This document shows, one piece after another, positions 806-46,049 of a stretch of 64,000 nt of DNA. The notes below the pieces were generated by a model. That model worked only from the letters and a program-made list of their open reading frames with translations. It searched no databases and was not told the DNA's origin. Position numbers and translations under genes: made by a program. Position 1 is the stretch's first letter, and every line of letters begins with the position of its first letter. This DNA comes from a bacterium (GTDB taxonomy: Bacteria; Hinthialibacterota; Hinthialibacteria; Hinthialibacterales; Hinthialibacteraceae): NCBI GenBank assembly GCA_963663405.2, contig CAXXSM010000132.1, positions 64,001 to 128,000 of the forward strand, read 5' to 3'.

Positions 806-1630
806 ATGTTCAAAAGAAAAACGATATATATCACACATTTCTCTATATGTTTCCTTTTCCTCGCTGGAATTCCATGTGCTATTCACTCGAATGAAACGAT
901 TCTTAAAGATGGTATAACTGAATCCGAATTTATTGCGTTTGTCACAAACCATTTGTCTCCATTCAAGTCGGCGAAGATCACCTATGAAGGTGTTCATTAC
1001 ATTCCCCCATCGTCATCCAAGGAAGGAAAGAGCACTAACGGCACCTATGTCTATAGAAGATGCGGAGAAAAACAACGAAAAGATATTCACTGGTTGGGGG
1101 AAACTCCTGACAATCATTATTATGTTTATGATGGTTCTACAGGTTATTTTGTTCACCTAGATCCAGGGGATCCCACGATTCGATCCGGTCCTGGTTTTAC
1201 AAAAATGTGGATGACGCCGGATTTTTTATCGTTCTATGGATCGAATTTGGATCATTTCATAACAAAATCTTTCCAAATATTGAAGATCGATCCGGAACAA
1301 AAAAAGATACGAGTTTTCTCCGATCAATATATGAGACCAGATCAATATTATGAGTTTACACTGCTTGATGACCACCATGCGTATTGGAAACAATGTGATG
1401 TTGTCTATGGTGATTTCGTTGATCGGCGCGTAATTTGTGATGATTTCACAGAAATTAGTGGAATGTTGGTACCAAAGACAATACATATTCAGAGAATAGG
1501 GAAAGATGGGTTGTACGATCAATATCAACTTAAACTCATTGAAGGCCAAGTGAATAATGTCGAATTTGAAGATGGCGCATTTGAGTCGCCAAAAGATGAA
1601 CATTTCTCACATAGATTTATTAATCGGTGA
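806..1630 (+). CDS. Secreted hypothetical protein
   Basis: 274-aa ORF with N-terminal signal peptide (FSICFLFLAGIPCAIHS); beta-rich body; AT-rich. Confidence 0.75.
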   Translation: MFKRKTIYITHFSICFLFLAGIPCAIHSNETILKDGITESEFIAFVTNHLSPFKSAKITYEGVHYIPPSSSKEGKSTNGTYVYRRCGEKQRKDIHWLGETPDNHYYVYDGSTGYFVHLDPGDPTIRSGPGFTKMWMTPDFLSFYGSNLDHFITKSFQILKIDPEQKKIRVFSDQYMRPDQYYEFTLLDDHHAYWKQCDVVYGDFVDRRVICDDFTEISGMLVPKTIHIQRIGKDGLYDQYQLKLIEGQVNNVEFEDGAFESPKDEHFSHRFINR

Positions 1631-1799: not shown

Positions 1800-3945
1800 A
1801 TGAATAAATTACTTCTATTAACAACCGGTCTCATCATTTGTCTCATCCCCCCATCCAAGCGAACGAATCGGAAAACACCTGCTTCCAAACCGGTCGTGGG
1901 TGGATTCCTGCGTTGGATTTACGGTCGGATGTGGCGATTGTGTATGGAGTCAACGCGTCGTTTCCGGAGCGGTTGGAAAGTTGGCGGTCGCGGGGGTATG
2001 GCGTGCATTTGATGACCGGCGTGGCGTGGGGCGGGTATCAGGATTATCTCGACGGCCGGTTCGATGGTTCCAAACATTGGGATGAAGGGCAGGTCGACCG
2101 GCAGGGGGATATGATCATGCACGGCGGCGGCGTTCCCTACATGGTTCCATCGCCCAGCTATGTTGAATATCTCAAGAGCCTGGTCAAAACCGCCATCGAT
2201 GAGGGCGTCACCGCATCCACTTGGAAGAACCGGAATTCTGGAACCGGGGCGGATACAGTGAAGGCTTCAAACGGGAATGGAAAGAGTATTATGACGAATC
2301 CTGGCAGGCGCAGCACGAATCCCCCGAAGCGGCCTACCGCTCCGCCAAGTTAAAATATCACCTCTATTTCCGCGCCTTGGAACAGGTCTTTCTCTTCGCC
2401 AAAGAATACAGCGAGAAAAAGGGGCGGCGCGTCCGGTGTTACGTTCCCACCCACACGCTGATTAATTACTCCGCCTGGGAGATCGTGAGTCCGGAATCGA
2501 GCCTCGCGGACCTGGCCGGCATGGATGGGTACATCGGCCAAGTCTGGACCGGCACAGCGCGCACGCCCGTGATCTACGAAGGAATCGAAAAAGAACGCAC
2601 ATTCGAAAACGCTTTCCTTGAATACGGCTCCATGGTGGCCATGACAAAACCCGCCGGACGCCGCGTCTACTTCCTCACCGATCCCATCGAAGATAACCCG
2701 AATCACACCTGGGAGGACTACAAAAACAATTACGAAGCGACGTTCACCGCGCAGCTGATGTATCCCTCCGTATCCCATTATGAGGTAATGCCCTGGCCCA
2801 GCCGGATCTTTCTTGGAAAATATAGGGTGGAAGGTTCCGATAAACGCGAGCCCATCCCCACAAAATACGCCACGGAAATCCTAACGCTCATCAATGCGTT
2901 GAACGAAATGCGATCCTCAAACAATCAAATCCCCGGTACCCAAGGCGTCGGCGTTCTTCTCTCCGACACCATGATGTTCCAGCGCTTCCCCACATTCGGC
3001 GAAGAATATACAGACCGGCGTCACTCCAATTTCTACGGCTTGGCGCTCCCGCTTCTCAAACACGGCGTTCCTGTTCAGCTCGTTCAAATGGAGAACCTTC
3101 TTCACCCCGAAACGTTGCGGGATATTCGGGTTCTGCTGATGAGTTACGCCCACATGAAACCAATGAAGCCGGAGTATCACAAAGTCCTGGCGGATTGGGT
3201 GAAGAACGGCGGCGCGCTGGTTTACGTGGGACGCGACAACGATCCTTATCAAACGATCCGTGAATGGTGGAATCAAGGAAAGAACCACTACAAAGCCCCA
3301 TCAGAACATCTATTCGAACAACTGGGCGCAGAACCAAAATCAAAAACGCTGACGATAAAAGAAGGGAAGGGAATCCTTTCCATCCTGCGCAAAAATCCCA
3401 AAGAGATCGCCACGGCCAAAGGCGGAGGCGATGAACTGCGGGCATTAATCAAAACCTGTCTATGTGAAATAGGATATGAAAACGAGTGGAAGAAACAGAA
3501 CGTTCTCCACCTCCAACGTGGGCCATACGATATCGCGGCAGTATTGGAAGAAAGCGTATCAGATACGCCCTACACAATCCCTGGCCCGGTCATCGATCTA
3601 TACAATCCAGACCTGCTAGTATTGGACAAAAAAGTGATCGAACCGGGCGAACGGGCGTTTCTGCTTTCGCTATCGCGCTTCACAAAAGAATCGCCCTGCA
3701 TCCTCGCGGCGGCGTCCCGCGTGAGTGATAGGAAAAAAGAAGGAGCCACATATACCTTCACGCTCAAAGGCCCTGCAAACACGCAGGGCATCGCGCGAAT
3801 TCTCCTCAAATCGAAGCCGGAAAAATTGACGATTCAATCAAGCGCCGAAACGCCTATGGAGCCAGAGTGGGATGAAACAACAAAAACCATGCTAATCCGC
3901 TATCCAAACTCACCGGATGGTGTTCAGGTGATTGTTGAGGATTAG
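1800..3945 (+). CDS. Secreted conserved hypothetical, glycoside-hydrolase-like (TIM barrel plus GATase-like domain), split by two frameshifts
   Basis: Signal peptide in ORF 1800 joins ORF 1838 at the C-run near 1847 and ORF 2221 near 2213 (restoring VTAIHLEEPEFW); GAGG RBS before 1800. Confidence 0.7.
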
Positions 3946-6614
3946 TGGGATTCTGTGGTATAAACATCGTATGTAACGCGGATCACTTCTTCCACAGACG
4001 TCGCGCCGGAAAGCGCTTTCATAATTCCTTCTTCGCGCAGTGTTTTCTGATCCGAATTCTGGATGGCTTTGTGAATTGTCGAAAGCCCGGCGCCTTCGAC
4101 AATCAAATCCCGGATATTCTCTTTGATAATCAGCAATTCATAAAATCCAGTGCGGCCCAGGTAACCGGTGTTGAAACATTCCTTGCACCCCCGTGGCCGG
4201 AAGATCGGCTGTCCTTCTAACAGAAGGGCTTCCTCACCCAATTGTTGCAGTTCATTGGATGTCGGGGAACTCTGTTTTTTACAGTGAGGACAGAGTTTTC
4301 GCACGAGCCGCGAAGAAACGATTCCCAATAGCGCCGCGCCGATCGTTTCCCGGTTGAATCCAGTGTCGTACAGCCGGTGAATCGCCCCAATCGCATCGGC
4401 GGCGTCGAGTCCGGCGAGGAACGTATAATGAGACGCGGAGGCGTCAAAAATCAGCGACGCGGTATCCAAATCCTTCAGTTCCCCAGCCATTACAATGTCC
4501 GGCTCATGCTGCATGACGGAATTGACGACGCTCGCATACGGCAGTCCGCCGGACGCGCGGAATGAATTCTGGTTGATATTCTTTAATTCATATTCAATCG
4601 GCGCTTCGATGGTAGCGATTTTCCGCGTGCCGTTATTCAGGAAATTCAAGCACGCGTATTGCAGCGTAGTTCTCCCGCTCCCCCGCGGCCCCGCGGTCAA
4701 GATCAGTCCATTCGGCGCTCGCAGCAGTGTTTGCAGCGGATCCAGCAATTCTTCGCGTATACCCAAACGGTCCAAAGTGATCGACGCCATTTTCTCATCG
4801 ATCAGCCGCATTGCTAACGATTCCCTTTTATCACCGGGAAGAATAGACGCTCGTACGTTGATTTGTTCTCCTAACAAGAGGCGGCTGAAAAAACCATCTT
4901 GGGTGAATTCGGCTTCGGTAGGATTCATTTTACATAACTGTTTCACGGCGTTGATGAGAGGTTTCAACATGCCTTGATGAAATGTGATTGATTCCGTTTG
5001 GACACCGTCGATTTGGTATTGAATGGAAGCGCTGTTTTCCTGCGCCGTGATCTCAATTTCATTCGCGCGGATTCGAATCCCTTGAATTAGGATGTAATTG
5101 AGCAGGTCGATAAGTTGATGTTGATGGCTCTCATCAAGATACGCCCCCGCAAATTCCTTCGACTTAGCCATAGACTCAGACCGGGATTCGATGAGACCGG
5201 GCAGTGTATAGGGCGTCTTCACAGGCGCTTTACAAAACGGGCATTCCTCAAAATTTAAATTCTCAAAAAAAGCGGGATCATCGATTGACCGTCCGCAGGA
5301 CGAACAGACCAGTTTGGATTCCTGTGTTCTCCACCGTCCGATGTAATAAAAAATCAGCCCGAAGATTCCGGAGTAACTGACGATTTTTTTCCAATCGCTG
5401 TAAACGACCTGCCGATTCGGTAAATCACGCACGACGATCTTCAAAGGCAGATACCAGAGCAGAAGAACAGCCAATACGACTCCGAGAATAATCCATACCC
5501 AGATGATATCAAACGAACTCGTATCGACCTTTCCTGAAAATAGATTGCTGAAAAATCGCTGGGTTCCGCCCCATGCGCCACGAAACCAATTGGTGACTTT
5601 ATCGGTTGTCGAGGGAACCGGCGTCGGCGCCGGAGCGGGGATATATCGTGTCTTGGGTTGTTCTTTGACGGAAGGAATCAGCGCGGATTGCGCCTGCGCC
5701 AGCGCGATTCGCAAGCGTTTCTTCTCGTTGGCCGTTAAAACGGTTTCATCGATATCTTTCAAATAAAGCACGGCGTCGCTGTAATTTTTTTCATACAATT
5801 CGATCAAACCGAGGTGATACATCGCGCGGGAATTGTTGGGAGAAAGTTCGATGGCTTTAATAAAAAGCTGCTTCGCTTCCGGCGATTGTCTATCCCGGCT
5901 TCGCAGGAGGACGAGTTCTCCCCATTCGATATACAGGTTGGTCACTTTTTCCGGCAGATCTCTAGCAAGCAAGTGATTTGGATAATGGGTGAGGATCACT
6001 TCGTAATGCTCGATCGCCTTTTCATAATCGTTCCGGTTCCGCTGGCGCTGCCCTTCTTCGATATGTTTTTGAACGACCGTTTTCTCCAGTTTCAGTTTCG
6101 CGCCTTGCAAGCGGGATAAAATATCCGCGTCGGATATCAATCGTTTCACTTCTTCGATTTGTTGAATGTCATCCAATCCTTGGACCAGCGGATCGTGTTG
6201 ATCCAAGGCGGCGATATATTTTTGAATGACCGATTTCTGCTGGATTATAACGGAATTCTTTTCCGCGGACGTATTCGCAAGTTTAAGCGCTTCGGCATAG
6301 TAGCGCACAGCGGCGATGTAATTTTCCCGCACATCCTCCACATGAGCGCGCGCCAGAAGGTTCATAAACGGAGTTCCCTTTTCCACACGCTCAATAGCGT
6401 CTTCCGGGAACGAAAAAACGCCGCCCGCCGTTTCGATCACAACGTTTCCATTCGTAGATTCGCGCAGAATCCCTTCAATTTTCTTGCCGGTCTTCAGGTG
6501 AATGATGTCCGCATAGAGACTGAAACAAGTCAAAAAAGCAAAGAAAAAAGCCGTGAAAAAGAAAATTCTGTGTCTTGGGAAAATTGGAGTAATTGTTTTC
6601 ATCGCAATCCGCAT
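3942..6614 (-). CDS. Signal peptide + TPR + TM + Zn ribbon fused to GspE/PilB-family ATPase domain with degenerate motifs
   Basis: C-terminal GLILTAGPRGSGRTT, TIEAPIEY, EPDIVMAGELKD, RLVRKLCPHC...GCKEC.NTGYLGRTG.YE, TSVEEVIRV; TPR-like helices at N-terminus; start 6614 or 6602. Confidence 0.85.
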   Translation of the reverse strand: MRIAMKTITPIFPRHRIFFFTAFFFAFLTCFSLYADIIHLKTGKKIEGILRESTNGNVVIETAGGVFSFPEDAIERVEKGTPFMNLLARAHVEDVRENYIAAVRYYAEALKLANTSAEKNSVIIQQKSVIQKYIAALDQHDPLVQGLDDIQQIEEVKRLISDADILSRLQGAKLKLEKTVVQKHIEEGQRQRNRNDYEKAIEHYEVILTHYPNHLLARDLPEKVTNLYIEWGELVLLRSRDRQSPEAKQLFIKAIELSPNNSRAMYHLGLIELYEKNYSDAVLYLKDIDETVLTANEKKRLRIALAQAQSALIPSVKEQPKTRYIPAPAPTPVPSTTDKVTNWFRGAWGGTQRFFSNLFSGKVDTSSFDIIWVWIILGVVLAVLLLWYLPLKIVVRDLPNRQVVYSDWKKIVSYSGIFGLIFYYIGRWRTQESKLVCSSCGRSIDDPAFFENLNFEECPFCKAPVKTPYTLPGLIESRSESMAKSKEFAGAYLDESHQHQLIDLLNYILIQGIRIRANEIEITAQENSASIQYQIDGVQTESITFHQGMLKPLINAVKQLCKMNPTEAEFTQDGFFSRLLLGEQINVRASILPGDKRESLAMRLIDEKMASITLDRLGIREELLDPLQTLLRAPNGLILTAGPRGSGRTTLQYACLNFLNNGTRKIATIEAPIEYELKNINQNSFRASGGLPYASVVNSVMQHEPDIVMAGELKDLDTASLIFDASASHYTFLAGLDAADAIGAIHRLYDTGFNRETIGAALLGIVSSRLVRKLCPHCKKQSSPTSNELQQLGEEALLLEGQPIFRPRGCKECFNTGYLGRTGFYELLIIKENIRDLIVEGAGLSTIHKAIQNSDQKTLREEGIMKALSGATSVEEVIRVTYDVYTTESH

Positions 6615-6957
6615 GGTTTGTTTTTGTGGAAAGGTAATGTTCCGGCCGATCTCACCCATTCTTCGTTCCGCATAAAATAAAACTACGCGGCACGATTTAG
6701 AAAAGAAAAATTGCTCCGGTATACATATACTTTACAAACATCGATCCAAATATGTAAGGCGGAACCACATCGCGCCGTTTTCTTGAACGTACAATATCAC
6801 CGCTTTCCCGAATCGTCTATAAAAGACTGATATCAGAACAAGAGATTACAAAATGATACAAGTCAAGAGATATTTTGGGTTCATCTGAGTGAATACATTA
6901 CTGTCAAAGATCGTTTCTTTCTGACAGAAGATACAGAATCATAATGAATACCCAGCC

Positions 6958-7100
6958 TTGAAAGGCTCTTACCTTGAGCGGTTTATCACTTGTTCCCATT
7001 CCACTTGTTCGTGCCATCAAGGCCAACGGCATGGGCCGCGAATCTATGTGGTCATCATCCGGAACCAGGCCCAACGGCAGGTGTATGTGCCCCAAACGCA
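6958..7100 (+). pseudogene. Truncated DUF6788-like Cys/His protein (IS-associated)
   Basis: KGSY...CSHSTCSCHQGQRHGP..YV....RQVYVP, then abrupt loss of similarity. Confidence 0.55.
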
Positions 7101-7540
7101 ACCACCGCTATTTCCAAATCCCGCATCCGATCCAACTCCACCTAGTCGTTATACGGGAGACCGATCTTCCCCTCGGAGTGGAACCTCTTCTTTGGGCGCT
7201 TTTTACCAGCTTGCCGGTTGCTACCTGGGAACTGTTGCGCTAAATCGGGCGCCTGTATGAATTCCGCTGGAAGATTGAAGACTTCTTCAAATTGTTGAAG
7301 TCCGGGTATGGGATCGAAAAACATCGCTTTTGTAATGCCACGAAAACAGTGAAATTGCTCGTGCTGCTAACCATGGCGGCGATGACGCTTTTCCATCTGA
7401 AGGAGGCGCTTGGATTGCCGTCTAGAGGCTAACTCGTTAAACGGGGATACCAAAAACTTAAACAAACTTCGCGTGACCTTCATAATCCCGATTTCGATCT
7501 CCGTTGGCGATTACTTGCTTACTTACCGGATAAGCCAATT
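7100..7540 (+). mobile_element. IS4-family (IS50/Tn5-like) transposase remnant
   Basis: Frame reads EPLLWALFTSLPV...*IGRLYEFRWKIEDFFKLLKSGYGIE, giving the Y-2-R-3-E-6-K (YREK) signature; in-frame stops at 7241 and 7430. Confidence 0.8.
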
Positions 7541-7573
7541 TTATATTTCGATGGATTGCCGTTTCGGTATAAA

Positions 7574-7602
7574 AAAAGGAGTGAAATAAATCCACTCCTT
7601 TT
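7574..7602 (-). terminator. Intrinsic terminator after pilin genes (probably bidirectional)
   Basis: AAAAGGAGTG...CACTCCTTTT inverted repeat with A/T tails. Confidence 0.65.
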
Positions 7603-7630
7603 ACGAGTTGCATTTGTTTGAAAATTCAAC

Positions 7631-8197
7631 TTACGCAGTACCGACGCGAACGATATCTCCATAACTCTTCAGCCCATTGGTGGGCTCATAGATATCAAAC
7701 AACGAACTTGGGGCGTGGATTCCATCGGGGCCGAAACTCCAGATGTAATACACGTTACCCGCATGACAATCGCCTTCATTATATCGCAACCGGCCTTGCT
7801 TCGCCTGCGAATAAAGCGAAGGATCTTGAATCAGACGTTCGGGAGCTACGGCAGGGAACCAGTCTGCGTGATACTCACCAAAACTCCATTCTATCGTTCC
7901 CAATCCCACCGTATTGGCTTGTTGGAAGGGATCTTTTGGAATGGAACCGACATACGAGATGGGAGTGGTCAAATATTTATTCTGGTTGGCTGAATGACCG
8001 CAATGCGGTGGCGGACCACCGTTGTCAAGGTTATACATGGAATATGCGTTCTCAAACGCCCGCATCTCCGCTTCGCATTTCGCGATCTTGGCCCGCATTT
8101 GGGCATTCAGAAAATTCGGTACGGCGATCGCCGCCAAAATCCCGATAATGGCGACGACGATCAACAATTCGATGAGTGTAAATCCTTTCTTCTTCAT
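7631..8197 (-). CDS. Prepilin-type N-methylation domain protein (pilin/pseudopilin-like)
   Basis: MKKKG|FTLIELLIVVAIIGILAAIAVPNF; LTTPISY...PKDPF; SFGPDG; GAGG RBS. Confidence 0.9.
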   Translation of the reverse strand: MKKKGFTLIELLIVVAIIGILAAIAVPNFLNAQMRAKIAKCEAEMRAFENAYSMYNLDNGGPPPHCGHSANQNKYLTTPISYVGSIPKDPFQQANTVGLGTIEWSFGEYHADWFPAVAPERLIQDPSLYSQAKQGRLRYNEGDCHAGNVYYIWSFGPDGIHAPSSLFDIYEPTNGLKSYGDIVRVGTA

Positions 8198-8357
8198 TCG
8201 ATGCAACCTCCCCAAAAAAATAATATATTCTTCAAAATCACCTTAAAATAGGTAAATTGAATCCATCATTTCAGCTGTCGACACGAGCGATGTCAACAAA
8301 AATGAATCGTATAGCAATTTATCCCTTCATTTAAGAAGAACAGTTCAAAACAATCGA

Positions 8358-8975
8358 TTACTGCCCGCCAAGAATCTGGCTGTTCAATACAAAAATATTC
8401 CCACTAGACGTCAAGCCATTGGATGGCATATAAATAAAGCCGGCGTTTCGATCTTTCAATCCCTGCGCGCCGGTGGTTCCCCACGGATAATCCTGCAAAC
8501 CATTCGGACCGAGAGATGTCATGATGTAGGCGATATTGTATTGATTGAGCATATTAAACGTCGCCGTGGTGTTGATGCACGATGGCGTTCCCTTTGGGCC
8601 GAATGAAACCGCGGACGTATATTCATATACGGGTTTTAAGCCGGTTTTGATCGTCTGGCGGTTCTCAAATTCAGGATTGATCCCGGCAAACGCGTCTTCT
8701 GGAATTGATGCGATGTAGGAGACCGGTGTCGTCAAAGGAAGGTAGGATAAATGTTCCGCCTGTCCCACTCCACAATCACCATCGTAGGTATACTGTCCCC
8801 GGTCCAAGTGATATTGCTCTTCCGCCATGGCGACGGCTTTCATATCCGAGACGACCCGCGCAACCTTGGCCCGCATTTGGGCGTTCAAAAAATTCGGCAC
8901 CGCGATCGCAGCGAGGATGCCAATAATGGCGACAACAATGAGTAATTCAATCAAAGTAAACGCGTTTCTTTTCAT
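8358..8975 (-). CDS. Prepilin-type N-methylation domain protein
   Basis: MKRNA|FTLIELLIVVAIIGILAAIAVPNF; LTTPVSY; SLGPNG; SNGLTSSGNI. Confidence 0.9.
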   Translation of the reverse strand: MKRNAFTLIELLIVVAIIGILAAIAVPNFLNAQMRAKVARVVSDMKAVAMAEEQYHLDRGQYTYDGDCGVGQAEHLSYLPLTTPVSYIASIPEDAFAGINPEFENRQTIKTGLKPVYEYTSAVSFGPKGTPSCINTTATFNMLNQYNIAYIMTSLGPNGLQDYPWGTTGAQGLKDRNAGFIYMPSNGLTSSGNIFVLNSQILGGQ

Positions 8976-9122
8976 TTACGTCTAATCTCCCTTATAAAAT
9001 TAAAGACATTATTCTATCAAATAAAAAATTATAGGATGGAAATAAAAGAAAATCTATACCTATCGTTAATCCGAATCAATTAAAATAGGGATGTTTTATC
9101 TCATTTTTGGCAGGGCTGGTTT

Positions 9123-9488
9123 TTAGTCAGTTTTTTTCCTTGATTTTTTAGCCGTTTTCAGTTTCGCGGCTGAAGGGGGAACCGATGTCAGGATATCGGG
9201 ACCGGTCGGGGTTGTTTCCGGCTCATGCTCGATCAACAGTTCCACGCTGTCCTCCGGGCGTGGAATCACGTGCGCGGAAATGACTTCACCCACGCGCCGG
9301 GCCGCGGAAGCGCCCGCTTCGACCGCCGCTTGAATATCCGCCACTTCCCCCCGCAACTTGACCGTGCAGAGCCCCGGTTCGGTATATTCAATTTGCGTCA
9401 ACACCGCTTCGGCGGTTTTCACCGCCGCGTCCGAGGCTTCAATCGCGCCGATCAATCCTTGTGTTTCGATCAGTCCTAATGCCTTCAT
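9123..9488 (-). CDS. BMC-H microcompartment shell protein with Pro/Lys-rich tail
   Basis: MKALGLIET.GL..AIEA.DAAVK.A...GEVA.IQAAVEAG...SAHVIPRP. Confidence 0.9.
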   Translation of the reverse strand: MKALGLIETQGLIGAIEASDAAVKTAEAVLTQIEYTEPGLCTVKLRGEVADIQAAVEAGASAARRVGEVISAHVIPRPEDSVELLIEHEPETTPTGPDILTSVPPSAAKLKTAKKSRKKTD

Positions 9489-9661
9489 CTCTCTCCGCGA
9501 ATCCCTTTCCATTCAATCTCGCTCTTTCCATCATACGTCCGAATTTGAAAAAAGAGAAGTCACAAGTCACCCAGATCCGCAAAAGCCCATCCAGCAGGCG
9601 CCTTTGTGAAGTTCACCTCCTGTCCTCTCCTCTCGAATTTCATCTTTTCTCACAATCCCTC

Positions 9662-9703
9662 TTGCTATTTCATCCGGATTCCATATACTGTACATATGTT
9701 CAT
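9662..9703 (+). promoter_or_regulatory. umuD promoter with putative LexA (SOS) box
   Basis: TTGCTA-16-TATACT followed by GTAC-ATAT-GTTC, also readable as CTG-N10-CAT. Confidence 0.6.
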
Positions 9704-9757
9704 TTATTTGGCGCGTTGGCGCTTGACTTGAGAGACACGGCCGCATGGGAGGTTCCT

Positions 9758-10183
9758 GTGTGTATCCGCAAGATTTACACGCCCGGCGCGGGAAGAAAAT
9801 TCTCCGCGCCGCTGGCGGAATCGTTTGTCCCGGCGGGGTTCCCCTCCCCGGCGGACGACTACATCGAGAAGGCGCTCGATCTCAATGAATACCTGATCGC
9901 CAACCAGGCGGCTACGTTTTTCGTGCGGGTCTCCGGCGATTCCATGACCGGCGCGGGTATCCACGACGGGGATATTCTCATCGTCGACCGCTCGATCGAT
10001 CCTGTGCGCGGCCAGGTGGCCGTCGCCGTCATCGATGGAGAGATGACGGTCAAACGCCTGCGTTGGCGCGGGGGAAAACTGACGCTGGAACCGGAAAACG
10101 ACAAGTATCCGCCCATCGAAATCAACAGCGAGTCCGAATGCCTGATTTGGGGGGTGGTCACCTATGTCATCCACGCTTTGTAA
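9758..10183 (+). CDS. umuD: DNA polymerase V subunit UmuD (S24 peptidase)
   Basis: [27 protein letters not shown]; GGAGG RBS before GTG 9758. Confidence 0.93.
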
Positions 10184-11468
10184 ACCGCGCAAAAGTCCAG
10201 CCGTCGCGCTGGTGGATTGCAACAATTTCTACGTCTCCTGCGAGCGTGTGTTCAACCTCAAATTGGAGAACAAGCCGGTTATTGTGCTCTCCAATAACGA
10301 TGGCTGCGTCATCGCCCGCTCGAACGAAGCGAAAGCGCTGGGATTGAAGGTGGGCGATCCATTTTTTAAGGTCCTCCCATTCGTTCGCAAGGCGGGGATG
10401 AGTTACTACTCCTCCAATTATGCGCTTTATGCGGATATGTCCGCGCGGGTGATGGCGGCGCTCTCTCATTTCACCCCCCGCCTGGAGATTTATTCCATCG
10501 ATGAAGCCTTCCTGGACCTGGCCGGCGTGAAGGAGCCTTCGTTGACCGAGTACGCCCGGCGGATTCGCTCGACCGTGCGGCGCTGGACCGGCATCCCCGT
10601 ATCTGTGGGGATCGCGGAGACCAAAACCCTCGCCAAGATCGCCAACCGCCTCGCCAAAAAATACCCCCATCTGAACGGCGTGCTCGATCTGCGTGGGATG
10701 CCGGAGCCGGAACGGACGCTCTCGCTGGTGGATGTAAAAGACGTATGGGGGATCGGCCATCGCCACACCGCCCGCCTTCAGCGTCACGGAATTTTCAACG
10801 CCTGGCAGCTGCGCAACGCCGATGACGCATGGATTCAGAAACAGATGGGAATCGTGGGATTACGCTTGATTCATGAACTGCGGGCCATCCCCTGTTTAGC
10901 GTTGGATCTCTGCCCGGCTCCCAAGAAAGGGATCACCTGTTCCCGCTCGTTCGGGAACCCTGTCGAATCGCTCACCGATCTCAAACAGGCGGCCGCCACG
11001 TTCACCACCCGCGCGGCGGAAAAACTGCGCGGCCAGCGCTCGTTGACGAAAACGATCACCGTCTTCCTGATGACCAATCCGTTCAAGAACGATCCCCAGT
11101 ATTACAACTCCATCTGGATCGATCTCCCCGTCGCGACGTCCTGCACGGGCGAATTGATCCGCTATGCCACACGGGGCGTCGAAGCGATCTACCGGCCGGG
11201 ATACAAGTACAAGAAAACAGGCGTCATGTTCGCCGAGATCGTGCCCGGCGAGTGCTACCAGGCCAATTTCTTCGATGAAGAAAACCGCCCCCGCGACCAA
11301 CGTCTCATGCGTGTCCTAGACCACATCAACACCCGCATGGGCCCCGGCGCGTTAAAATACGCCGCCGCAGGAATCAAACCCCGCTGGAAAATGCGCCAAG
11401 AATACCGCTCCCCCCGCTATACAACCCGCTGGGAGCATCTCCCTATCGTATTGGCGTTTTTGAGGTGA
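10164..11468 (+). CDS. umuC: DNA polymerase V subunit UmuC (Y-family)
   Basis: [24 protein letters not shown]-terminal [16 protein letters not shown]. Confidence 0.95.
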
Positions 11469-41933: not shown

Positions 41934-44900
41934 CTAAAACAGGTTTTCCCAGTCGGTCTTTCTCAAGGTGTCCTTCAGCTGCGCAAACGCTTTTAGTAAA
42001 GCGGGTAATAGGGCGGCGCAGCGTTCAAGATGGTCTTCTTCCGCCATCCGTTCCATCTGATACGCGAGTTCCCGAAGCTGGCTCGCGCCGATATTGATGG
42101 CCATTCCACCGAGTTTGTGACTGTTTTTCTCTATCTGATTCAAATCCTCCGCTTCCACTGATTCTTTTAACTGTTGCATAATCTCCGGTGTATCGTCAAG
42201 AAAAATCTGGATAATTTCCTGGACGAGTTCCAATTCTCCATCCAGTTCTTTGATGAGATTTCGGGGATTGAATGTGTCGGATTCTTTTTTTTCGTAGACG
42301 TCTCTTCCTTCGACTCGTGACGGTTCTTCTTGAGGCGCCGGATCAATCGGGGGGACAGAATTTTCAGATGCGCAGTATTTTAAAAGGATTGCTTTCACCG
42401 TATCCTTTCTGATTGGTTTGGATAGATAATCATTCATACCCGCATTCAAACACTTTTGCCGATCCCCTTCCATCGCATAGGCGGTCATGGCCACAATCAG
42501 AGTATCCCGGGCGTCCGTTTCCAAATTCCGGATTTTCTTCACCGCTTCAAATCCATCCATGACAGGCATGGAACAATCCATAAATACAAGATCATACTTG
42601 AACCGCCGGACCGCCTTCACTGCTTTTTTACCGTTGTCGACGATTTCGACTTGGCAGCCAAGGTTTTCCAATATCGCTTTCGCTACTTCCTGGTTGACTT
42701 GATTATCTTCCACTAATAGAATCCGCGCCGCGATTTGTTGTGGTTTCTCCCCTGTCGTTTGTTCCGGTTCTCTTTCTTCTTTTAATATAGGAGAAGAAGT
42801 GGACTTCTCTTGAGTGTGTTGTTGATCGATAAACCAGCATTGCATCAGCGAATCAAGAAGATCGGAGGAACGGACCGGTTTTCGCAGACAAGAGGAAAAA
42901 CCAGTCTCTTTCATAAAACGTGAATCTCGCCGAATTATCGCAGAGGAGAGTAAAAGGAGGATGATATCGTTGATACAGCTGTCTTGTTTGATTGTTTTGG
43001 CGAGTTGGACGCCATCCATTTCAGCCATGTGGTGGTCCAACAAAGCAATATGATAGGGATAGCCCATTTTATGAGCGTTTCGCATCATTGCTAGCGCTTC
43101 CTTGCCGGATACGGCTGGATCGCAAGGCACATCCCATTTCGATAAGTATTCAATAATGATTCTTCTGTTAATAGCGTTGTCATCCACTACAATGGCGCGG
43201 AGTCCTGCGAGAGGAACTTTGGAAATGATTTTCTCTTCATCTTGTTGATGTAAGCGCAATTTGATTTTGAACTGAAAAATGGAACCTATCCCTAATGTGC
43301 TCTCAACTTCGAGCTTTCCCCCCATGATCTTCACAAGTTGTCTACTGATTGCCAGTCCCAGACCGGTTCCTCCATACCGGCGTGTAATCGATGTATCCGC
43401 TTGGGAAAACTGTTTAAAGATTGTTTGTTGTTTATCCCTCGCTATACCGGCGCCGGTGTCTTCCACTCGGATGCGAACGATGGCTTTGTCATTGACGAGA
43501 TGTTTGCAATCAACGTCGATCAATACATAACCCTTCTCAGTAAATTTCACAGCGTTTCCGACCAGATTCATCAGAACCTGCCGTATCCGTACAGGATCCC
43601 CAATGAAATGACTAGGAACGTCGGGCATATAACGAATCATCAGATCAATATTTTTTTCCGGCGCTTTCACTCCGATCAATTGCCCCACTTGTTCGACGAT
43701 AGTTCGCAGATTGAATGGAATGGATTCGATTTCGAGTTTTCCCGCTTCGATTTTTGAAAAATCGAGAATATCGTTCAATATTGTCAGAAGCGCAGAAGCC
43801 GAATTCGCGATTGTTTCGGCATAGTCTCGTTGTTGTGCGCTGAGCGAGGCGCCGAGAAGAAGATCCGTCATACCGACAATTCCATTCATGGGTGTGCGGA
43901 TTTCATGGCTCATATTGGCCAGGAACTCGCTCTTGGCGATGTTTGCCTTTTCGGCCTCTAACCGGGCTTTTTCGAGGCTGCGATTTGTTCTTTCCAACTC
44001 CTGAGCGTACGTATTCAGTTGTTCTTCCACCTGTTTACGTTCAGTAATATCACGGATGATTCCTATAGCGTTCCATTTCCCTTTCAGATTCATCGCAGCC
44101 AGTGAAATCTCAATAGGAAATTCCGTTCCGTCTCTTCGCATGGCCGACAATTCAAGGAATTGGCCGATCGCGCCGCCTTCCCCGGTTTGCTGAAACTGCT
44201 TAAATCCGTTTTCAAAAGCAACGTGATATTTCTTGGGGGCAAGAAGCTTGTGCATATCCTTGCCGATCGCCTCTTCTTTGGTCCATCCAAAAATTGTCTC
44301 CGCCGCGTTGTTCCAGAAGGAGATCCGGCCTTCGGAATCCATCATCAGAATCGCATCCTGGGCATATAGACTGATCGTTCGTATCCGTTCTTCGCTCTCA
44401 AGCAGGCTTTCCTCCGCCTGTTTGCGTTCTGTGATATCTTCTCCCGAACTGAATAAACCCGTAATAGCGCCGGAATAATCCTTGAGAAGGCTGTTATGCC
44501 AATATATAATTCTTTCCTCACCGCTTTTCGTAACAATTGGATTTTCAAAAATTTCATATAAATTCAATGCGCCGGAAAGTGTATTTTCAATAACTGTTCG
44601 GAGCGTTTCTCGACTTTGGTATGGCAAGAAATTGTCAATCCAATTCTTGCCAAGAATCTCATCTTCACAATAGCCTAGGATTTGGCAGCCTTTCTTATTG
44701 ATCAGAGTTACATTGCATTCCGTATCCAAAGCCAGTAGAATGACTCCGGCGATGTCCAGATACATCTGGGCCCGGTCACGTTCCGCCCGCAGCGCCTCTT
44801 CCGCCCGTTTTTGGGAACAAAGCCGCCCCAGCGTGGCGGCGTACAGGCAGAGCAACTCACAATCCCGCTCATATATAGGCTGTCCGCGTAGAAGATTGTC

Positions 44901-46049
44901 GATCGTTATATATCCCATAAATGAATCGCCATCCCAAATTCCTGTGGAGACGGCCGATCCGCGACCCACGACGATGTGTTCTTGGTTAAAAAGCGGATGA
45001 TCATTTTGCAAAAGATACCGTTCTTTTTGCGTGCGGAGTTCTTGGATCTCTTCATATTCCGAAACCAACAATCGTTGATCGCGTTCATCGCGAATTTGGC
45101 CGGTTTCGTCGATCCCGAATGTGCCCTGCATCGTATTGGGTTCTATCGTATCCACAAACCAGATTCCCAACCGTTCAAAGCCCAACCGGCTTTGCCCAAG
45201 TTCCACCGCGCGGCGACACAACTCATCGAACGAAGCGATGGTGGATAGTTCATTATTCACTTCCGTCAGCGTCTTTAGTTTATGTTGATATTGAAGTTCG
45301 ATCTCTTCCCGTTCCCGCAACGCCTTCTCAACGGTTTTTCGCTTGGTAATATCCAGTGTGTATTCGATGATCTGGTCTACATCCCCTTTCTCATCCAAAA
45401 TCGGGAAGGAATGCACTTCGAGATGAATCACCTTTCCACTGTTGTCGTGGTGGATATGCTCGACGACTGCCGGTTGTTTGGTTTGTACGACTTGTTGCAG
45501 GGGACAGGGATGTTCGTGAGAATCGCAAGGCGTTTTCCGGTCGTGTGTCAGAGCGTAGCAGGTGGATCCCTTCAAGGAATCCGTGGTTTGAGCGGCGGAA
45601 TTGCATAACGCAACGGTGAAATCCTTGGTGTTGATGACATAAAAGGGATGCGAAAGAGATTCCAATATAGTATTTAAAAACTCATTTTTTTTTCGGAGTT
45701 CTTCTTCGGACCGCTTTGTTTTTTTTCGGGCGGCCTCCGCTTGTTGGGACAGTCTTCTTAATTCTTTTTGTTGATTTAATAAATAGGTGTTATAGGCGAG
45801 AAACTCCTCATTTCTGGCTTTTAACTCTTCGGATTGCCAGTAGAGATTATCTGTGGTTTCTTTCAGATGGCTTTCCGTTTTTTTTTGTTCGTCTTCCATT
45901 TGTTGCAGATTGACCACAAGCTGGTTGATGCCCTCCACCAACTGGTCCAGTGGATCGTCTTCTCCGGAGAGAGGGAGCCGGATCGAGTAATCACCTTCCA
46001 CGGCTTTCTTGACTGCGCTAATGAATTCATTCACTCGTTCGCTCTTCAT
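41934..46049 (-). CDS. Cytoplasmic hybrid histidine kinase (HAMP-PAS-GAF-PAS-PAS-HK-REC-REC-HPt)
   Basis: FLANMSHEIRTPMNG, NLVGNAVKFT, GGTGLGL, two REC domains, HPt SHKLGG. Confidence 0.93.
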   Translation of the reverse strand: MKSERVNEFISAVKKAVEGDYSIRLPLSGEDDPLDQLVEGINQLVVNLQQMEDEQKKTESHLKETTDNLYWQSEELKARNEEFLAYNTYLLNQQKELRRLSQQAEAARKKTKRSEEELRKKNEFLNTILESLSHPFYVINTKDFTVALCNSAAQTTDSLKGSTCYALTHDRKTPCDSHEHPCPLQQVVQTKQPAVVEHIHHDNSGKVIHLEVHSFPILDEKGDVDQIIEYTLDITKRKTVEKALREREEIELQYQHKLKTLTEVNNELSTIASFDELCRRAVELGQSRLGFERLGIWFVDTIEPNTMQGTFGIDETGQIRDERDQRLLVSEYEEIQELRTQKERYLLQNDHPLFNQEHIVVGRGSAVSTGIWDGDSFMGYITIDNLLRGQPIYERDCELLCLYAATLGRLCSQKRAEEALRAERDRAQMYLDIAGVILLALDTECNVTLINKKGCQILGYCEDEILGKNWIDNFLPYQSRETLRTVIENTLSGALNLYEIFENPIVTKSGEERIIYWHNSLLKDYSGAITGLFSSGEDITERKQAEESLLESEERIRTISLYAQDAILMMDSEGRISFWNNAAETIFGWTKEEAIGKDMHKLLAPKKYHVAFENGFKQFQQTGEGGAIGQFLELSAMRRDGTEFPIEISLAAMNLKGKWNAIGIIRDITERKQVEEQLNTYAQELERTNRSLEKARLEAEKANIAKSEFLANMSHEIRTPMNGIVGMTDLLLGASLSAQQRDYAETIANSASALLTILNDILDFSKIEAGKLEIESIPFNLRTIVEQVGQLIGVKAPEKNIDLMIRYMPDVPSHFIGDPVRIRQVLMNLVGNAVKFTEKGYVLIDVDCKHLVNDKAIVRIRVEDTGAGIARDKQQTIFKQFSQADTSITRRYGGTGLGLAISRQLVKIMGGKLEVESTLGIGSIFQFKIKLRLHQQDEEKIISKVPLAGLRAIVVDDNAINRRIIIEYLSKWDVPCDPAVSGKEALAMMRNAHKMGYPYHIALLDHHMAEMDGVQLAKTIKQDSCINDIILLLLSSAIIRRDSRFMKETGFSSCLRKPVRSSDLLDSLMQCWFIDQQHTQEKSTSSPILKEEREPEQTTGEKPQQIAARILLVEDNQVNQEVAKAILENLGCQVEIVDNGKKAVKAVRRFKYDLVFMDCSMPVMDGFEAVKKIRNLETDARDTLIVAMTAYAMEGDRQKCLNAGMNDYLSKPIRKDTVKAILLKYCASENSVPPIDPAPQEEPSRVEGRDVYEKKESDTFNPRNLIKELDGELELVQEIIQIFLDDTPEIMQQLKESVEAEDLNQIEKNSHKLGGMAINIGASQLRELAYQMERMAEEDHLERCAALLPALLKAFAQLKDTLRKTDWENLF

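What the first reader, a model, noticed from the sequence alone, without database searches (positions are those of the whole stretch)
3942..6614. Receptor-like, membrane-anchored PilB/GspE pseudo-ATPase
Seen: one ORF joins a signal peptide, a small beta-domain, TPR-like repeats, a PAPAPTPVP linker, a TM region, a CxxC..CxxC ribbon and a complete PilB/GspE module. The catalytic motifs are all altered together: Walker A GPRGSGRTT (K to R), Asp box TIEAPIEY (D to A), Walker B region QHEPD..AGELKD (usually RQDPD..GEIRD), His box SHYTFLAGLDAAD (usually TGHLV.STLHTND), and FTQDGF for RLPQDGR. The structural Zn cysteines are kept. Established: PilB/GspE motors are soluble cytoplasmic hexamers. Inference: an extracytoplasmic TPR sensor wired to a dead ATPase subunit could dock onto or co-assemble with the active motor and gate pilus or T2SS assembly. 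I know no named family with this architecture. It lies 1 kb downstream of two co-oriented pilins.
Basis: partly seen in the sequence, partly recalled or inferred. Interest (0 to 1): 0.85.

Follow-up and report, generated by a model that had tools for sequence, protein, structure and literature searches.

The report
Membrane-anchored GspE-like ATPase gone catalytically dead
This gene encodes a membrane-anchored relative of the pilus/secretion motor ATPases with an exported repeat domain; most related bacteria keep it as an apparently working enzyme, but this genome's copy has lost its catalytic residues while staying otherwise intact.

Summary
Window 3942-6659 (minus strand) encodes a 905-aa protein with a signal peptide, small beta-domain, TPR-like solenoid, Pro-rich linker, one strong TM helix, a CxxC..CxxC ribbon and a full GspE/PilB module. 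Walker A Lys, the Asp box, the His box and the Arg fingers are all replaced.

It is not a chimera or an orphan. It is the single-copy orthologue of an unnamed family found in 17 of 19 genomes of the same bacterial family, labelled Candidatus Omnitrophota where titled, and more distantly in 6 of 6 genomes of two sister families.

Of 16 same-family orthologues with an ATPase domain, 13 keep canonical motifs. Catalytic decay happened at least four separate times.

The window copy keeps 21 of 21 family-invariant periplasmic positions but only 91 of 164 ATPase positions, with no indels. This fits a maintained pseudo-ATPase rather than a dying gene.

The pilin link is weak. The usual upstream neighbours are a secreted beta+TPR paralogue and an FGE-sulfatase-fold protein. 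In this genome both sit on another contig, and a decayed insertion-sequence copy separates the gene from the pilins.

Charge distribution supports TPR outside and ATPase inside. Function is inferred, not shown.

The parts
3942..6659 (-). Whole ORF, 905 aa with stop codon included; the likely true start is Met16 at 6614 or Met20 at 6602
   Evidence: orthologue alignment
6510..6614 (-). Signal peptide (residues 16-50): basic n-region, hydrophobic core IFFFTAFFFAFLTCF, and ..LYA followed by D at the likely cleavage site
   Evidence: Hydropathy. An A-then-D junction is kept in 3 of 3 sequences aligned. Cleavage itself is inferred.
6381..6509 (-). Small beta-domain (residues 51-93)
   Evidence: Six strands in the AF2 model. 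Weak NCBIfam hits to Leptospira N-terminal domains NF047433 and NF047503. The same module opens the c0 neighbour protein.
5676..6371 (-). TPR-like alpha-solenoid (residues 97-328), predicted periplasmic
   Evidence: Pfam TPR_2, TPR_16 and others; helices at pLDDT about 90; only generic TPR fold hits; 21 of 21 family-invariant periplasmic columns kept
5538..5675 (-). Pro-rich linker (329-350, includes PAPAPTPVP) and juxtamembrane helix (351-374)
   Evidence: low pLDDT linker followed by helix 336-359 in model numbering
5442..5507 (-). Transmembrane helix (residues 385-406)
   Evidence: KD 2.6-2.8. Net charge is about 0 before it and +3 to +6 after it in 31 of 32 aligned family rows; P0062 is the exception at -1.
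5340..5441 (-). Conserved basic loop (407-425) and short hydrophobic helix (426-440), read as a cytoplasmic-face or re-entrant element rather than a second span
   Evidence: 15 residues, KD19 about 1.0, positive charge on both flanks; motif W-Y-x-P...N-W-R-K-I..Y.G..G conserved
5232..5306 (-). CxxC...CxxC zinc-ribbon (C452, C455, C473, C476)
   Evidence: All four Cys invariant in the 32-row alignment. The CxxC pairs are present in 43 of 43 family representatives and absent from 5 of 5 canonical controls.
3978..5126 (-). GspE/PilB-type module (N2 + C-terminal ATPase domain, residues 512-894)
   Evidence: Pfam T2SSE E 2.1e-77; PDB alignments; Foldseek TM-score to target 0.91 for PilF 5oiu
4884..4913 (-). 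N2-domain Arg-finger motif, degenerate: AEFTQDGFFS against [KR]R.PQDGHF in intact orthologues
4665..4691 (-). Walker A GPRGSGRTT (Lys to Arg; P-loop glycines and Thr kept)
4587..4613 (-). Asp box TIEAPIEYE (Asp to Ala)
4458..4514 (-). Walker B region MQHEPDIVMAGELKDLDTA (RQDPD becomes QHEPD, GEIRD becomes GELKD; the Glu is kept)
4392..4439 (-). His box, degenerate: SASHYTFLAGLDAADA against ALTGHLVFSTLHTIDT (both His lost)
4176..4292 (-). C4 zinc site of the ATPase C-terminal domain (CPHC...GCKEC), kept
6957..7522 (.). Internally deleted copy of a roughly 1.6-kb insertion sequence, lying between the pilin genes and this gene
   Evidence: 93% identity in two blocks (window about 6957-7101 and 7092-7522) to copies on C122 (two), C144 and C18, where about 1 kb separates the blocks. 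The one full copy whose ORFs were read (C122) carries a 590-aa ORF. Raised contig depth and loose ends at 6957, 7101 and 7522.
7631..8215 (-). Pilin/pseudopilin-like gene, 194 aa
   Evidence: Pfam N_methyl E 4.5e-10, T2SSG E 3.4e-4
8358..8975 (-). Pilin-like gene, 205 aa
   Evidence: Pfam N_methyl E 6.8e-8

Best explanation
The gene is this genome's single-copy orthologue of an unnamed, conserved family of inner-membrane-anchored GspE/PilB-type ATPases. The family layout is an exported beta-domain plus TPR solenoid, one TM helix, a basic loop with a short membrane-face helix, a cytoplasmic 4-Cys ribbon, and then the N2 and C-terminal ATPase domains in place of the usual soluble N1/GSPII adaptor domains.

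In most relatives the ATPase looks catalytically competent. The gene usually sits behind two exported partners: c0, a free-standing paralogue of its own beta+TPR domain, and c1, which has an FGE-sulfatase / PorK-GldK-like fold.

In this lineage the ATPase module has lost the residues needed for hydrolysis: Walker A Lys, the Asp-box Asp, both His-box histidines and the Arg fingers. It still keeps its fold, both zinc sites and the P-loop backbone, and the periplasmic domain is fully conserved.

Most likely mechanism (inferred). The protein still inserts with the TPR outside and the ATPase shell inside. It still engages its periplasmic partners, which are encoded on another contig. It now acts as a non-hydrolysing transmembrane scaffold, or possibly a nucleotide-binding switch, rather than a motor. 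A link to the neighbouring pilins is not required and is probably a by-product of a rearrangement.

Shown here: architecture, orthology, motif states, domain-specific relaxation, synteny. Inferred: topology, loss of activity, retained function, partners.
For: Architecture.

Orthology and copy number. The N-terminal 495 aa finds one full-length match in 17 of 19 same-family genomes; the other 2 give only weak partial hits, and one of the 17 is split over two contigs. It finds matches at 22-31% identity in 6 of 6 genomes of families f2 and f3. The own genome has no second copy.

Motif states:
- 13 of 16 same-family orthologues with an ATPase domain have GPTGSGKTT / TVEDPIEY / GE[IV]R[DA] (GEVRA in L034) / TGH..STLHT.
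- 3 of 16 are degenerate: the window, L010 and L029.
- 4 of 4 in f2/f3 are degenerate, and L037 also has the Lys-to-Arg change.
- All 21 keep the C4 site and the ribbon, and all keep G-x4-G-[KR]-[ST].

Independent losses. A tree built on non-ATPase columns only needs 4 changes of state (bootstrap 5-95%: 4-4). L029 is sister to intact P0002 and L010 is sister to intact L008, both with 100/99 or better support.

Domain-specific relaxation. Intact pairs are 66-91% identical in the ATPase domain against 34-70% (mostly 34-50%) in the periplasmic domain. The window is 43-47% against 32-49%.

Family-invariant columns, defined on 15 intact rows:
- periplasmic, window keeps 21 of 21;
- TM/ribbon, 21 of 30;
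- ATPase, 91 of 164;
- 0 inserted or deleted residues across 387 ATPase columns.

Pfam T2SSE scores 260.7 bits for the window against 382-424 for 10 intact family members.

Synteny. c0-c1-gene order holds in 11 of 15 informative same-family loci, including the two other degenerate ones. In the own genome intact c4-c0-c1 lie on C89:58022-61813, followed by an opposite-strand gene.

Partners. c0 resembles the gene's own periplasmic part (BLASTP E 4e-5). c1 hits FGE-sulfatase (E 6e-53) and PorK/GldK (E 7e-22, below cut-off).

Topology. K+R counts are 0-3 before the TM helix, 3-7 after it and 2-7 after the short helix in all 32 rows.

Precedent. Walker-box-inactive PilT still supports retraction together with PilU (passages of PMC11656802).
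Against: - No biochemical data exist. Walker A Lys-to-Arg proteins can still bind nucleotide, and the Walker B Glu is kept, so residual activity is not excluded.
- The window copy has left its conserved operon, lies next to a decayed IS, and has the longest terminal branch of its family even in non-ATPase columns (0.87 against a median of 0.38). It also keeps only 21 of 30 invariant TM/ribbon columns. All of this also fits early gene decay.
- Expression is unknown.
- No same-genus genome was available to test whether the substitutions are fixed or to measure dN/dS.
- Topology rests on hydropathy and charge rules only. The second hydrophobic helix could change it.
- The genome is 82% complete, so an intact paralogue could be unassembled.
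Confidence: 0.7

Rival explanations
1. First reader's model. The dead ATPase subunit, wired to an extracytoplasmic TPR sensor, docks onto or co-assembles with one of the genome's active GspE/PilB hexamers and gates pilus or T2SS assembly, working with the two upstream pilins.
For: - The genome has three canonical GspE/PilB genes, each next to a GspF gene, so active motors exist to dock onto.
- Two co-oriented pilin-like genes lie 1-2.3 kb upstream.
- One other degenerate orthologue (L037, also Lys-to-Arg) has a pilin-like gene 100 bp upstream.
- Inactive PilT can work through PilU (PMC11656802 passages).
Against: - Pilin adjacency occurs in only 2 of 21 loci.
- The genome holds 140 pilin-like N-termini in 8.44 Mb.
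- A decayed IS copy lies between the pilins and the gene.
- No T2SSF gene is on this contig.
- The conserved neighbours are c0 and c1, not pilus genes.
- The family is ancestrally an apparently active enzyme, so the receptor-plus-dead-subunit arrangement is not what the family was built for.
- Hetero-oligomerisation was not tested.
Confidence: 0.12
2. The gene is decaying. After being moved away from its operon by a rearrangement it lost function. The motif losses are the first visible damage, and the open frame is only not yet broken.
For: - Separation from c0-c1.
- An adjacent IS remnant.
- The longest branch in its family.
- 45% of invariant ATPase columns and 30% of invariant TM/ribbon columns lost.
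Against: - The 905-codon frame is open, with 0 indels across 387 ATPase columns and 21 of 21 invariant periplasmic columns kept.
- All 8 zinc-binding Cys and the P-loop glycines are kept.
- By my rough estimate, roughly 4% of random base changes in sense codons create stops. The more than 70 extra replacements in the ATPase domain alone would then be expected to bring several stops under neutrality. This is inference, not computed.
- Degenerate orthologues L010 and L029 remain inside the conserved operon.
- Whole sister families carry only degenerate copies. Catalytic loss is therefore compatible with long-term retention.
Confidence: 0.12
3. It is still an active ATPase that uses non-canonical residues: Arg in place of the Walker A Lys, and other residues substituting for the His and Asp boxes.
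For: The P-loop backbone, the Thr after the Arg and the Walker B Glu are retained. The fold is intact.
Against: Five motifs are changed at once, at positions that are near-invariant in 13 of 16 same-family orthologues, including both Arg fingers and both His-box histidines. Overall constraint on the ATPase domain has dropped to the level of the periplasmic domain. From recall, not from a call: single substitutions in these motifs abolish function in Pseudomonas PilB, PilT and PilU.
Confidence: 0.06

Closest known systems
GspE/EpsE (type II secretion) and PilB/PilF (type IV pilus extension) ATPases; Pfam T2SSE PF00437
   Same: N2 plus C-terminal ATPase fold (TM-score to target 0.9); C4 zinc site; 31-34% identity.
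   Different: - No N1E/GSPII (PF05157) domain. It is replaced by a signal peptide, exported TPR, TM helix and Zn ribbon.
- The catalytic Lys, Asp-box, His-box and Arg-finger residues are lost.
- No adjacent GspF/PilC gene.
- NCBIfam scores of 330 and 280 bits against cut-offs of 630 and 676.
GspL-GspE (or PilM/N-PilB) membrane tethering
   Same: It works like a fusion of the two roles: a bitopic membrane part with a periplasmic domain holds a GspE-type ATPase at the inner membrane. The comparison draws on established knowledge of the GspE-GspL complex, for example PDB 4pht, which is listed.
   Different: Here the tether is covalent. It uses a TPR ectodomain and a zinc ribbon, with no sequence similarity to GspL found by the Pfam or NCBIfam scans.
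Non-hydrolysing partners of secretion-superfamily ATPases (Walker-box-inactive PilT acting through PilU; archaellum FlaH with FlaI)
   Same: They show how an ATPase-fold protein without hydrolysis can still serve as an adaptor or switch in such machines. The PilT/PilU case was read in passages of PMC11656802. For FlaH I saw only a search listing and the start of the abstract of PMC6011876.
   Different: Those are soluble proteins of defined pilus or archaellum systems. This one is membrane-anchored, has an ectodomain, and belongs to no defined system.
LapB/YciM (TM anchor + TPR + rubredoxin-type zinc finger)
   Same: The combination of a membrane anchor, TPR repeats and a 4-Cys zinc module. 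There are weak hits in NCBIfam (E about 3e-4) and Foldseek (E 2e-4, TM about 0.2-0.3).
   Different: In LapB the TPR and zinc finger are cytoplasmic and there is no ATPase. The similarity is generic TPR, not membership.
PorK/GldK and GldJ (T9SS FGE-sulfatase-fold lipoproteins) - applies to the conserved neighbour c1 only
   Same: The C-terminal domain of c1 hits FGE-sulfatase (E 6e-53) and PorK/GldK (E 7e-22), a fold that T9SS uses structurally in a periplasmic ring (the ring role is recalled).
   Different: The score of 78 bits is far below the cut-off of 350. EgtB and SenA score higher. No other T9SS genes were seen beside it.

Membership tests
GspE/PilB secretion ATPase superfamily (Pfam T2SSE) | T2SSE domain sequence and fold (N2 plus C-terminal domain) | tested here: met
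   260.7 bits against cut-off 24.9; Foldseek E 6e-34, TM-score to target 0.91 for PilF
GspE/PilB secretion ATPase superfamily (Pfam T2SSE) | Walker A GxxGxGK[ST] | tested here: not met
   GPRGSGRTT: Lys replaced by Arg
GspE/PilB secretion ATPase superfamily (Pfam T2SSE) | Asp box (..EDPIE..) | tested here: not met
   TIEAPIEYE
GspE/PilB secretion ATPase superfamily (Pfam T2SSE) | Walker B with catalytic Glu (hhhhGE) | tested here: met
   DIVMAGELKD keeps the Gly-Glu pair; the flanking RQDPD and IRD are altered
GspE/PilB secretion ATPase superfamily (Pfam T2SSE) | His box (TGH....TLHT) | tested here: not met
   SHYTFLAGLDAA: both His lost
GspE/PilB secretion ATPase superfamily (Pfam T2SSE) | N2-domain arginine fingers (R.PQDGR) | tested here: not met
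   EFTQDGFF
GspE/PilB secretion ATPase superfamily (Pfam T2SSE) | ATP hydrolysis and hexamer formation | not testable with these tools
   Needs purified protein
GspE (TIGR02533) / PilB (TIGR02538) equivalogs | Score above the curated cut-off; N-terminal N1E/GSPII domain; neighbouring GspF/PilC gene | tested here: not met
   329.8 against 630.25 and 279.8 against 675.65; no PF05157 hit; no T2SSF match on contig C132
Unnamed family: exported beta+TPR, TM, Zn-ribbon, GspE-type ATPase | Co-linear full-length match across all modules | tested here: met
   38-47% identity over at least 93% of the length to 15 same-family orthologues; P0014 matches residues 39-901
Unnamed family: exported beta+TPR, TM, Zn-ribbon, GspE-type ATPase | TM helix followed by the W-Y-x-P / N-W-R-K-I / G-x-x-G-L motif and a CPxC...CPxC ribbon | tested here: met
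   The window has CSSC in place of CPxC in the first pair.
Unnamed family: exported beta+TPR, TM, Zn-ribbon, GspE-type ATPase | Operon c0 (beta+TPR) - c1 (FGE-sulfatase fold) - gene | tested here: not met
   Present in 11 of 15 informative same-family loci. In this genome c0-c1 are on contig C89 without the gene.
Unnamed family: exported beta+TPR, TM, Zn-ribbon, GspE-type ATPase | N-out / C-in topology (TPR periplasmic, ATPase cytoplasmic) | tested here: inconclusive
   Hydropathy and the positive-inside pattern support it in all 32 rows. No dedicated topology predictor or experiment was available.

The most novel reading that the evidence does not exclude
The family is an undescribed kind of envelope machine. 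A GspE/PilB-type hexamer is covalently anchored in the inner membrane, and its six TM helices couple the cytoplasmic ATPase ring to a periplasmic TPR assembly that works with a free TPR paralogue (c0) and a PorK-like FGE-fold protein (c1). The repeated, independent loss of catalysis, at least four times and including whole sister families, means the assembly has a second role that needs no ATP hydrolysis, such as scaffold, stator or switch. That role is what the window copy now performs.
Probability: 0.25. Interest if true: 0.8.

Novelty: new variant of a known kind. Interest (0 to 1): 0.6.

Why it matters
Secretion-superfamily ATPases (GspE, PilB, PilT) are textbook soluble hexamers that are recruited to the membrane by separate adaptor proteins. 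A conserved lineage in which the ATPase is itself a bitopic membrane protein with a large exported TPR domain would be a new way of wiring this motor to the cell envelope.

The family also offers a natural experiment. Close orthologues with intact and with degenerate active sites sit in the same operon context, which can show which functions of these motors do not need ATP hydrolysis.

The family is so far annotated only generically, as 'ATPase, T2SS/T4P/T4SS family', 'TadA' or 'hypothetical'. It occurs in uncultivated bacteria labelled Candidatus Omnitrophota, whose envelope biology is little known.

Tried and rejected
- Complex prediction of the window protein's periplasmic part (alignment A3, residues 36-360) with the own genome's c0 (A4, residues 44-274): no verdict, score 0.00 against a mark of 0.32. 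I do not use it either way.
- The look-up of sequencing runs: no RNA holder listed, so expression could not be examined.
- Read laying: only contigs were available. Run X3, from another study, holds pieces about 96% identical to parts of the gene, but the contig letters are not given, so no dN/dS could be computed.
- The protein-atlas search on residues 16-510: best score 0.79, generic TPR clusters, below the level that means anything.
- Foldseek of the N-terminal model against the PDB: only generic TPR solenoids at TM 0.1-0.4. No specific relative of the ectodomain was found.
- Rfam on 6500-7700: one chance-level hit, E 0.46.
- The promoter/terminator scan of 3700-9200 found fewer sites than in shuffles. 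Nothing can be said about the transcription unit.
- Pfam, NCBIfam and PDB sequence searches of c4 (471 aa, multi-pass by eye) found nothing.
- Four literature searches and passages of two papers found no description of a membrane-anchored or TPR-fused GspE/PilB. This covers only the held open-access library. Supplements were not opened.
- I considered a hetero-oligomer prediction with a canonical PilB and dropped it. Likeness to solved hexamers would make a pass uninformative.
- I considered reading the TPR as cytoplasmic, as in LapB, and rejected it. That reading would put the basic n-region outside and the +3 to +6 loop in the periplasm.

Full report
WHAT IS THERE. The feature is one open reading frame on the minus strand, window 3942..6659, 905 aa from the first ATG. 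Pfam finds a complete T2SSE domain at residues 512-894 (E 2.1e-77) and TPR repeats between 199 and 305. NCBIfam ranks GspE and PilB first, but at 330 and 280 bits against cut-offs of 630 and 676. An AlphaFold2 model built on 32 family sequences (mean pLDDT 84.1) shows these elements in order:
- an N-terminal hydrophobic helix;
- six short strands;
- a long alpha-solenoid;
- a low-confidence Pro-rich linker;
- a juxtamembrane helix;
- a long helix containing the TM segment;
- a second short helix;
- a small ribbon;
- a two-lobed ATPase that superposes on Thermus PilF and Geobacter PilB (TM-score to target about 0.9, rmsd 2.6 A).

THE MOTIFS. Walker A is GPRGSGRTT (Lys to Arg). The Asp box is TIEAPIEYE (Asp to Ala). 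The His box is SHYTFLAGLDAA (both His lost). The N2 arginine fingers are EFTQDGFF. Retained are the P-loop glycines and Thr, the Walker B Gly-Glu, the C4 zinc site and the upstream CxxC..CxxC ribbon. Independent Logan contigs of run X1 reproduce 4192-7041 without a difference, so these are not consensus errors of one assembler. X1 is probably the source sample.

NOT A CHIMERA, NOT AN ORPHAN. A word-indexed search found two full-length relatives at 42% identity. The exhaustive representative search found P0014 (44%, matching 39-901) and many proteins of 720-1000 aa whose match starts at or before the TM segment. BLAST with the TM-ribbon segment alone hit 43 of the 163 proteins then held. All 43 have the CPxC..CPxC ribbon, and five canonical controls do not.

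A scan of species-representative genomes with the N-terminal alignment returned nine loci. The three with informative titles are 'Candidatus Omnitrophota bacterium'. In the window's own taxonomic neighbourhood the N-terminal 495 aa finds a single full-length match in 17 of 19 genomes of the same family. The other two give only weak partial hits, and one of the 17 is split over two contigs. It finds matches at 22-31% identity in 6 of 6 genomes of two sister families, and only weak or no hits further out. No genome of the same genus was available. The own genome has one copy only.

THE FAMILY IS MOSTLY 'ALIVE'. I extracted the orthologue from 20 loci. Of 16 same-family sequences with an ATPase domain, counting the window, 13 carry GPTGSGKTT, TVEDPIEY, GE[IV]R[DA] (GEVRA in L034), TGH..STLHT and [KR]R.PQDGHF. 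Three are degenerate: the window, L010 and L029. All 4 from the sister families are degenerate, and L037 shares the Lys-to-Arg change.

A maximum-likelihood tree used only the non-ATPase columns, so that the trait does not shape the tree. It needs four changes of state (bootstrap range 4-4). L029 is sister to intact P0002 and L010 is sister to intact L008, each at 100/99 or better (quick version). Catalytic decay is therefore recurrent in this family.

MAINTAINED OR DECAYING? Among intact orthologues the ATPase domain is 66-91% identical, while the periplasmic domain is 34-70% (mostly 34-50%). For the window the figures are 43-47% and 32-49%. Degenerate pairs elsewhere show the same levelling.

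I took the columns that are invariant in 15 intact same-family rows. The window keeps 21 of 21 in the periplasmic domain, 21 of 30 in the TM/ribbon part and 91 of 164 in the ATPase domain. It has no inserted or deleted residue across 387 ATPase columns. The ectodomain is thus under unchanged constraint, and the ATPase shell keeps its frame and fold but has lost catalytic constraint.

L010 and L029 remain in the conserved operon, and whole sister families carry only degenerate copies. Together this favours a retained pseudo-enzyme over a dying gene. Decay is not excluded. The window copy has the longest branch in its family (0.87 against a median of 0.38) and has left its operon.

CONTEXT. In 11 of 15 informative same-family loci the gene follows two co-oriented genes.
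- c0 is about 275 aa, with a signal peptide, the same small beta-domain and TPRs. It clusters with the gene's own N-terminal part, and BLASTP of the own-genome copy against P0001 gives E 4e-5.
- c1 is about 420-460 aa, with a signal peptide, an N-terminal domain with a weak DUF3280-like hit, and an FGE-sulfatase domain (E 6e-53). That domain also resembles T9SS PorK/GldK below cut-off.
- A multi-pass membrane protein, c4, precedes them in three loci and in the own genome.

In the own genome intact c4-c0-c1 lie on contig C89 (58022-61813) and are followed by an opposite-strand gene. The ATPase gene itself sits in the middle of the 299-kb contig C132.

Between the gene and the two pilin-like genes (N_methyl hits) lies a 971-bp gap. 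Its core, about 6957-7522, is an internally deleted copy of an insertion sequence. It matches copies on C122 (two), C144 and C18 at 93% identity in two blocks. In those copies about 1 kb separates the blocks, and the C122 copy whose ORFs I read encodes a 590-aa ORF.

Pilin-like genes are common here: 140 N-termini match the prepilin pattern in 8.44 Mb. Only 2 of 21 loci have one just upstream, the window and L037. Each canonical GspE/PilB of the genome has its GspF next to it, and none is on C132. The pilin adjacency is thus lineage-specific and plausibly a by-product of rearrangement.

TOPOLOGY. There is one strong TM segment (385-406) and a short, conserved hydrophobic helix (426-440) whose 19-residue hydropathy (about 1.0) is below the usual threshold for a membrane span. 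Across 32 family rows the 15 residues before the TM helix carry 0-3 K+R (net about 0). The loop after it carries 3-7 K+R (net +3 to +6 in 31 rows, -1 in P0062). The 15 residues after the short helix carry 2-7 K+R.

With a basic n-region and an Ala-Asp junction at the end of the first hydrophobic stretch, the simplest reading is a cleaved signal peptide, an ectodomain outside, one span, and everything from residue 407 on in the cytoplasm. The short helix would lie in or on the inner leaflet. The ectodomain has no cysteine, while the cytoplasmic part holds the eight zinc-site cysteines. This is rule-based inference, not a measurement.

HOW IT MOST LIKELY WORKS. Canonical GspE is held at the membrane through its N1 domain by the bitopic GspL (established knowledge; PDB 4pht appears). 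This family replaces N1/GSPII with its own anchor and ectodomain, so it works like a covalent GspL-GspE. In most members an ATPase ring would be coupled through its TM helices to a periplasmic TPR assembly and to c0 and c1.

In the window copy, and independently in others, hydrolysis is very probably lost. The P-loop is conserved in all 10 degenerate rows, which leaves nucleotide binding possible. I therefore read the window protein as a non-hydrolysing transmembrane scaffold or switch of that module. I put about 0.7 on 'maintained, catalytically dead orthologue' and much less on any particular downstream role. A review passage gives a precedent for an inactive secretion-family ATPase that still functions alongside an active paralogue: Walker-box-mutant PilT acting with PilU (PMC11656802).

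COMPARISON AND NOVELTY. The protein belongs to the T2SSE superfamily by fold. It fails the GspE and PilB equivalog tests on score, N-terminal domain, catalytic motifs and neighbouring platform gene.

Sources name the family only generically. Four full-text searches and two papers read in passages gave no description of a membrane-anchored, TPR-fused GspE/PilB. The library holds open-access papers only, and supplements were closed.

I rate it a new variant of a known kind. The pseudo-ATPase reading is right for this gene but not for the family. The pilus-gating mechanism is unsupported.

Noticed in passing
window 6957-7522; own genome C122:15538-17449 (second copy near 44339-45954), C144:65245-66860, C18:14072-15687: A roughly 1.6-kb insertion sequence is present in at least four other places. 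The C122 copy whose ORFs were read carries a 590-aa transposase-like ORF and a 128-aa Cys-rich upstream ORF. The window holds an internally deleted copy whose 100-aa ORF (6958-7260, +) is the remnant of the small ORF. The transposase family was not identified.
   Followed up: partly
proteins P0016-P0023 and P0025-P0030: Among the best hits are about 14 proteins of 978-1047 aa with two matched stretches each. They look like tandem double GspE/PilB ATPases in one polypeptide. Their motifs and origin were not examined.
   Followed up: no
own genome C118:122421-123404: The T2SSF (GspF/PilC) match next to one canonical GspE/PilB is spread over three open frames of 141, 168 and 162 aa. This may be a frameshifted platform gene or an assembly error.
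   Followed up: no
window 9123-9512 (-): A 129-aa BMC-domain shell protein (Pfam BMC E 2.6e-24) sits directly upstream of the pilin pair, with no other microcompartment genes looked for.
   Followed up: no
window 9461-11468 (+): Two overlapping ORFs of 240 and 434 aa look by eye like a LexA/UmuD-type peptidase and a Y-family (UmuC/DinB-like) polymerase. They were not scanned against any library.
   Followed up: no
own genome, many contigs: The FGE-sulfatase domain of c1 has dozens of paralogues in this genome. tblastn hits at 25-35% identity fall on more than 25 contigs, which points to a large expansion of this fold.
   Followed up: no
window 51760 and 52401 (-): A second pair of pilin-like N-termini (ORFs of 194 and 189 aa) lies in the same window, with sizes similar to the pair at 7631-8975.
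   Followed up: no
run X3 laid on window 3700-5640: Contigs from a different study match parts of the gene and its downstream flank at about 96-97% identity. A close relative exists that could settle whether the substitutions are fixed.
   Followed up: partly
window 2221-3945 (+) and 806-1630 (+): The convergent 574-aa ORF that ends at the gene's stop codon and a 274-aa ORF with a signal-like N-terminus have no Pfam match at E 0.01 or better.
   Followed up: partly
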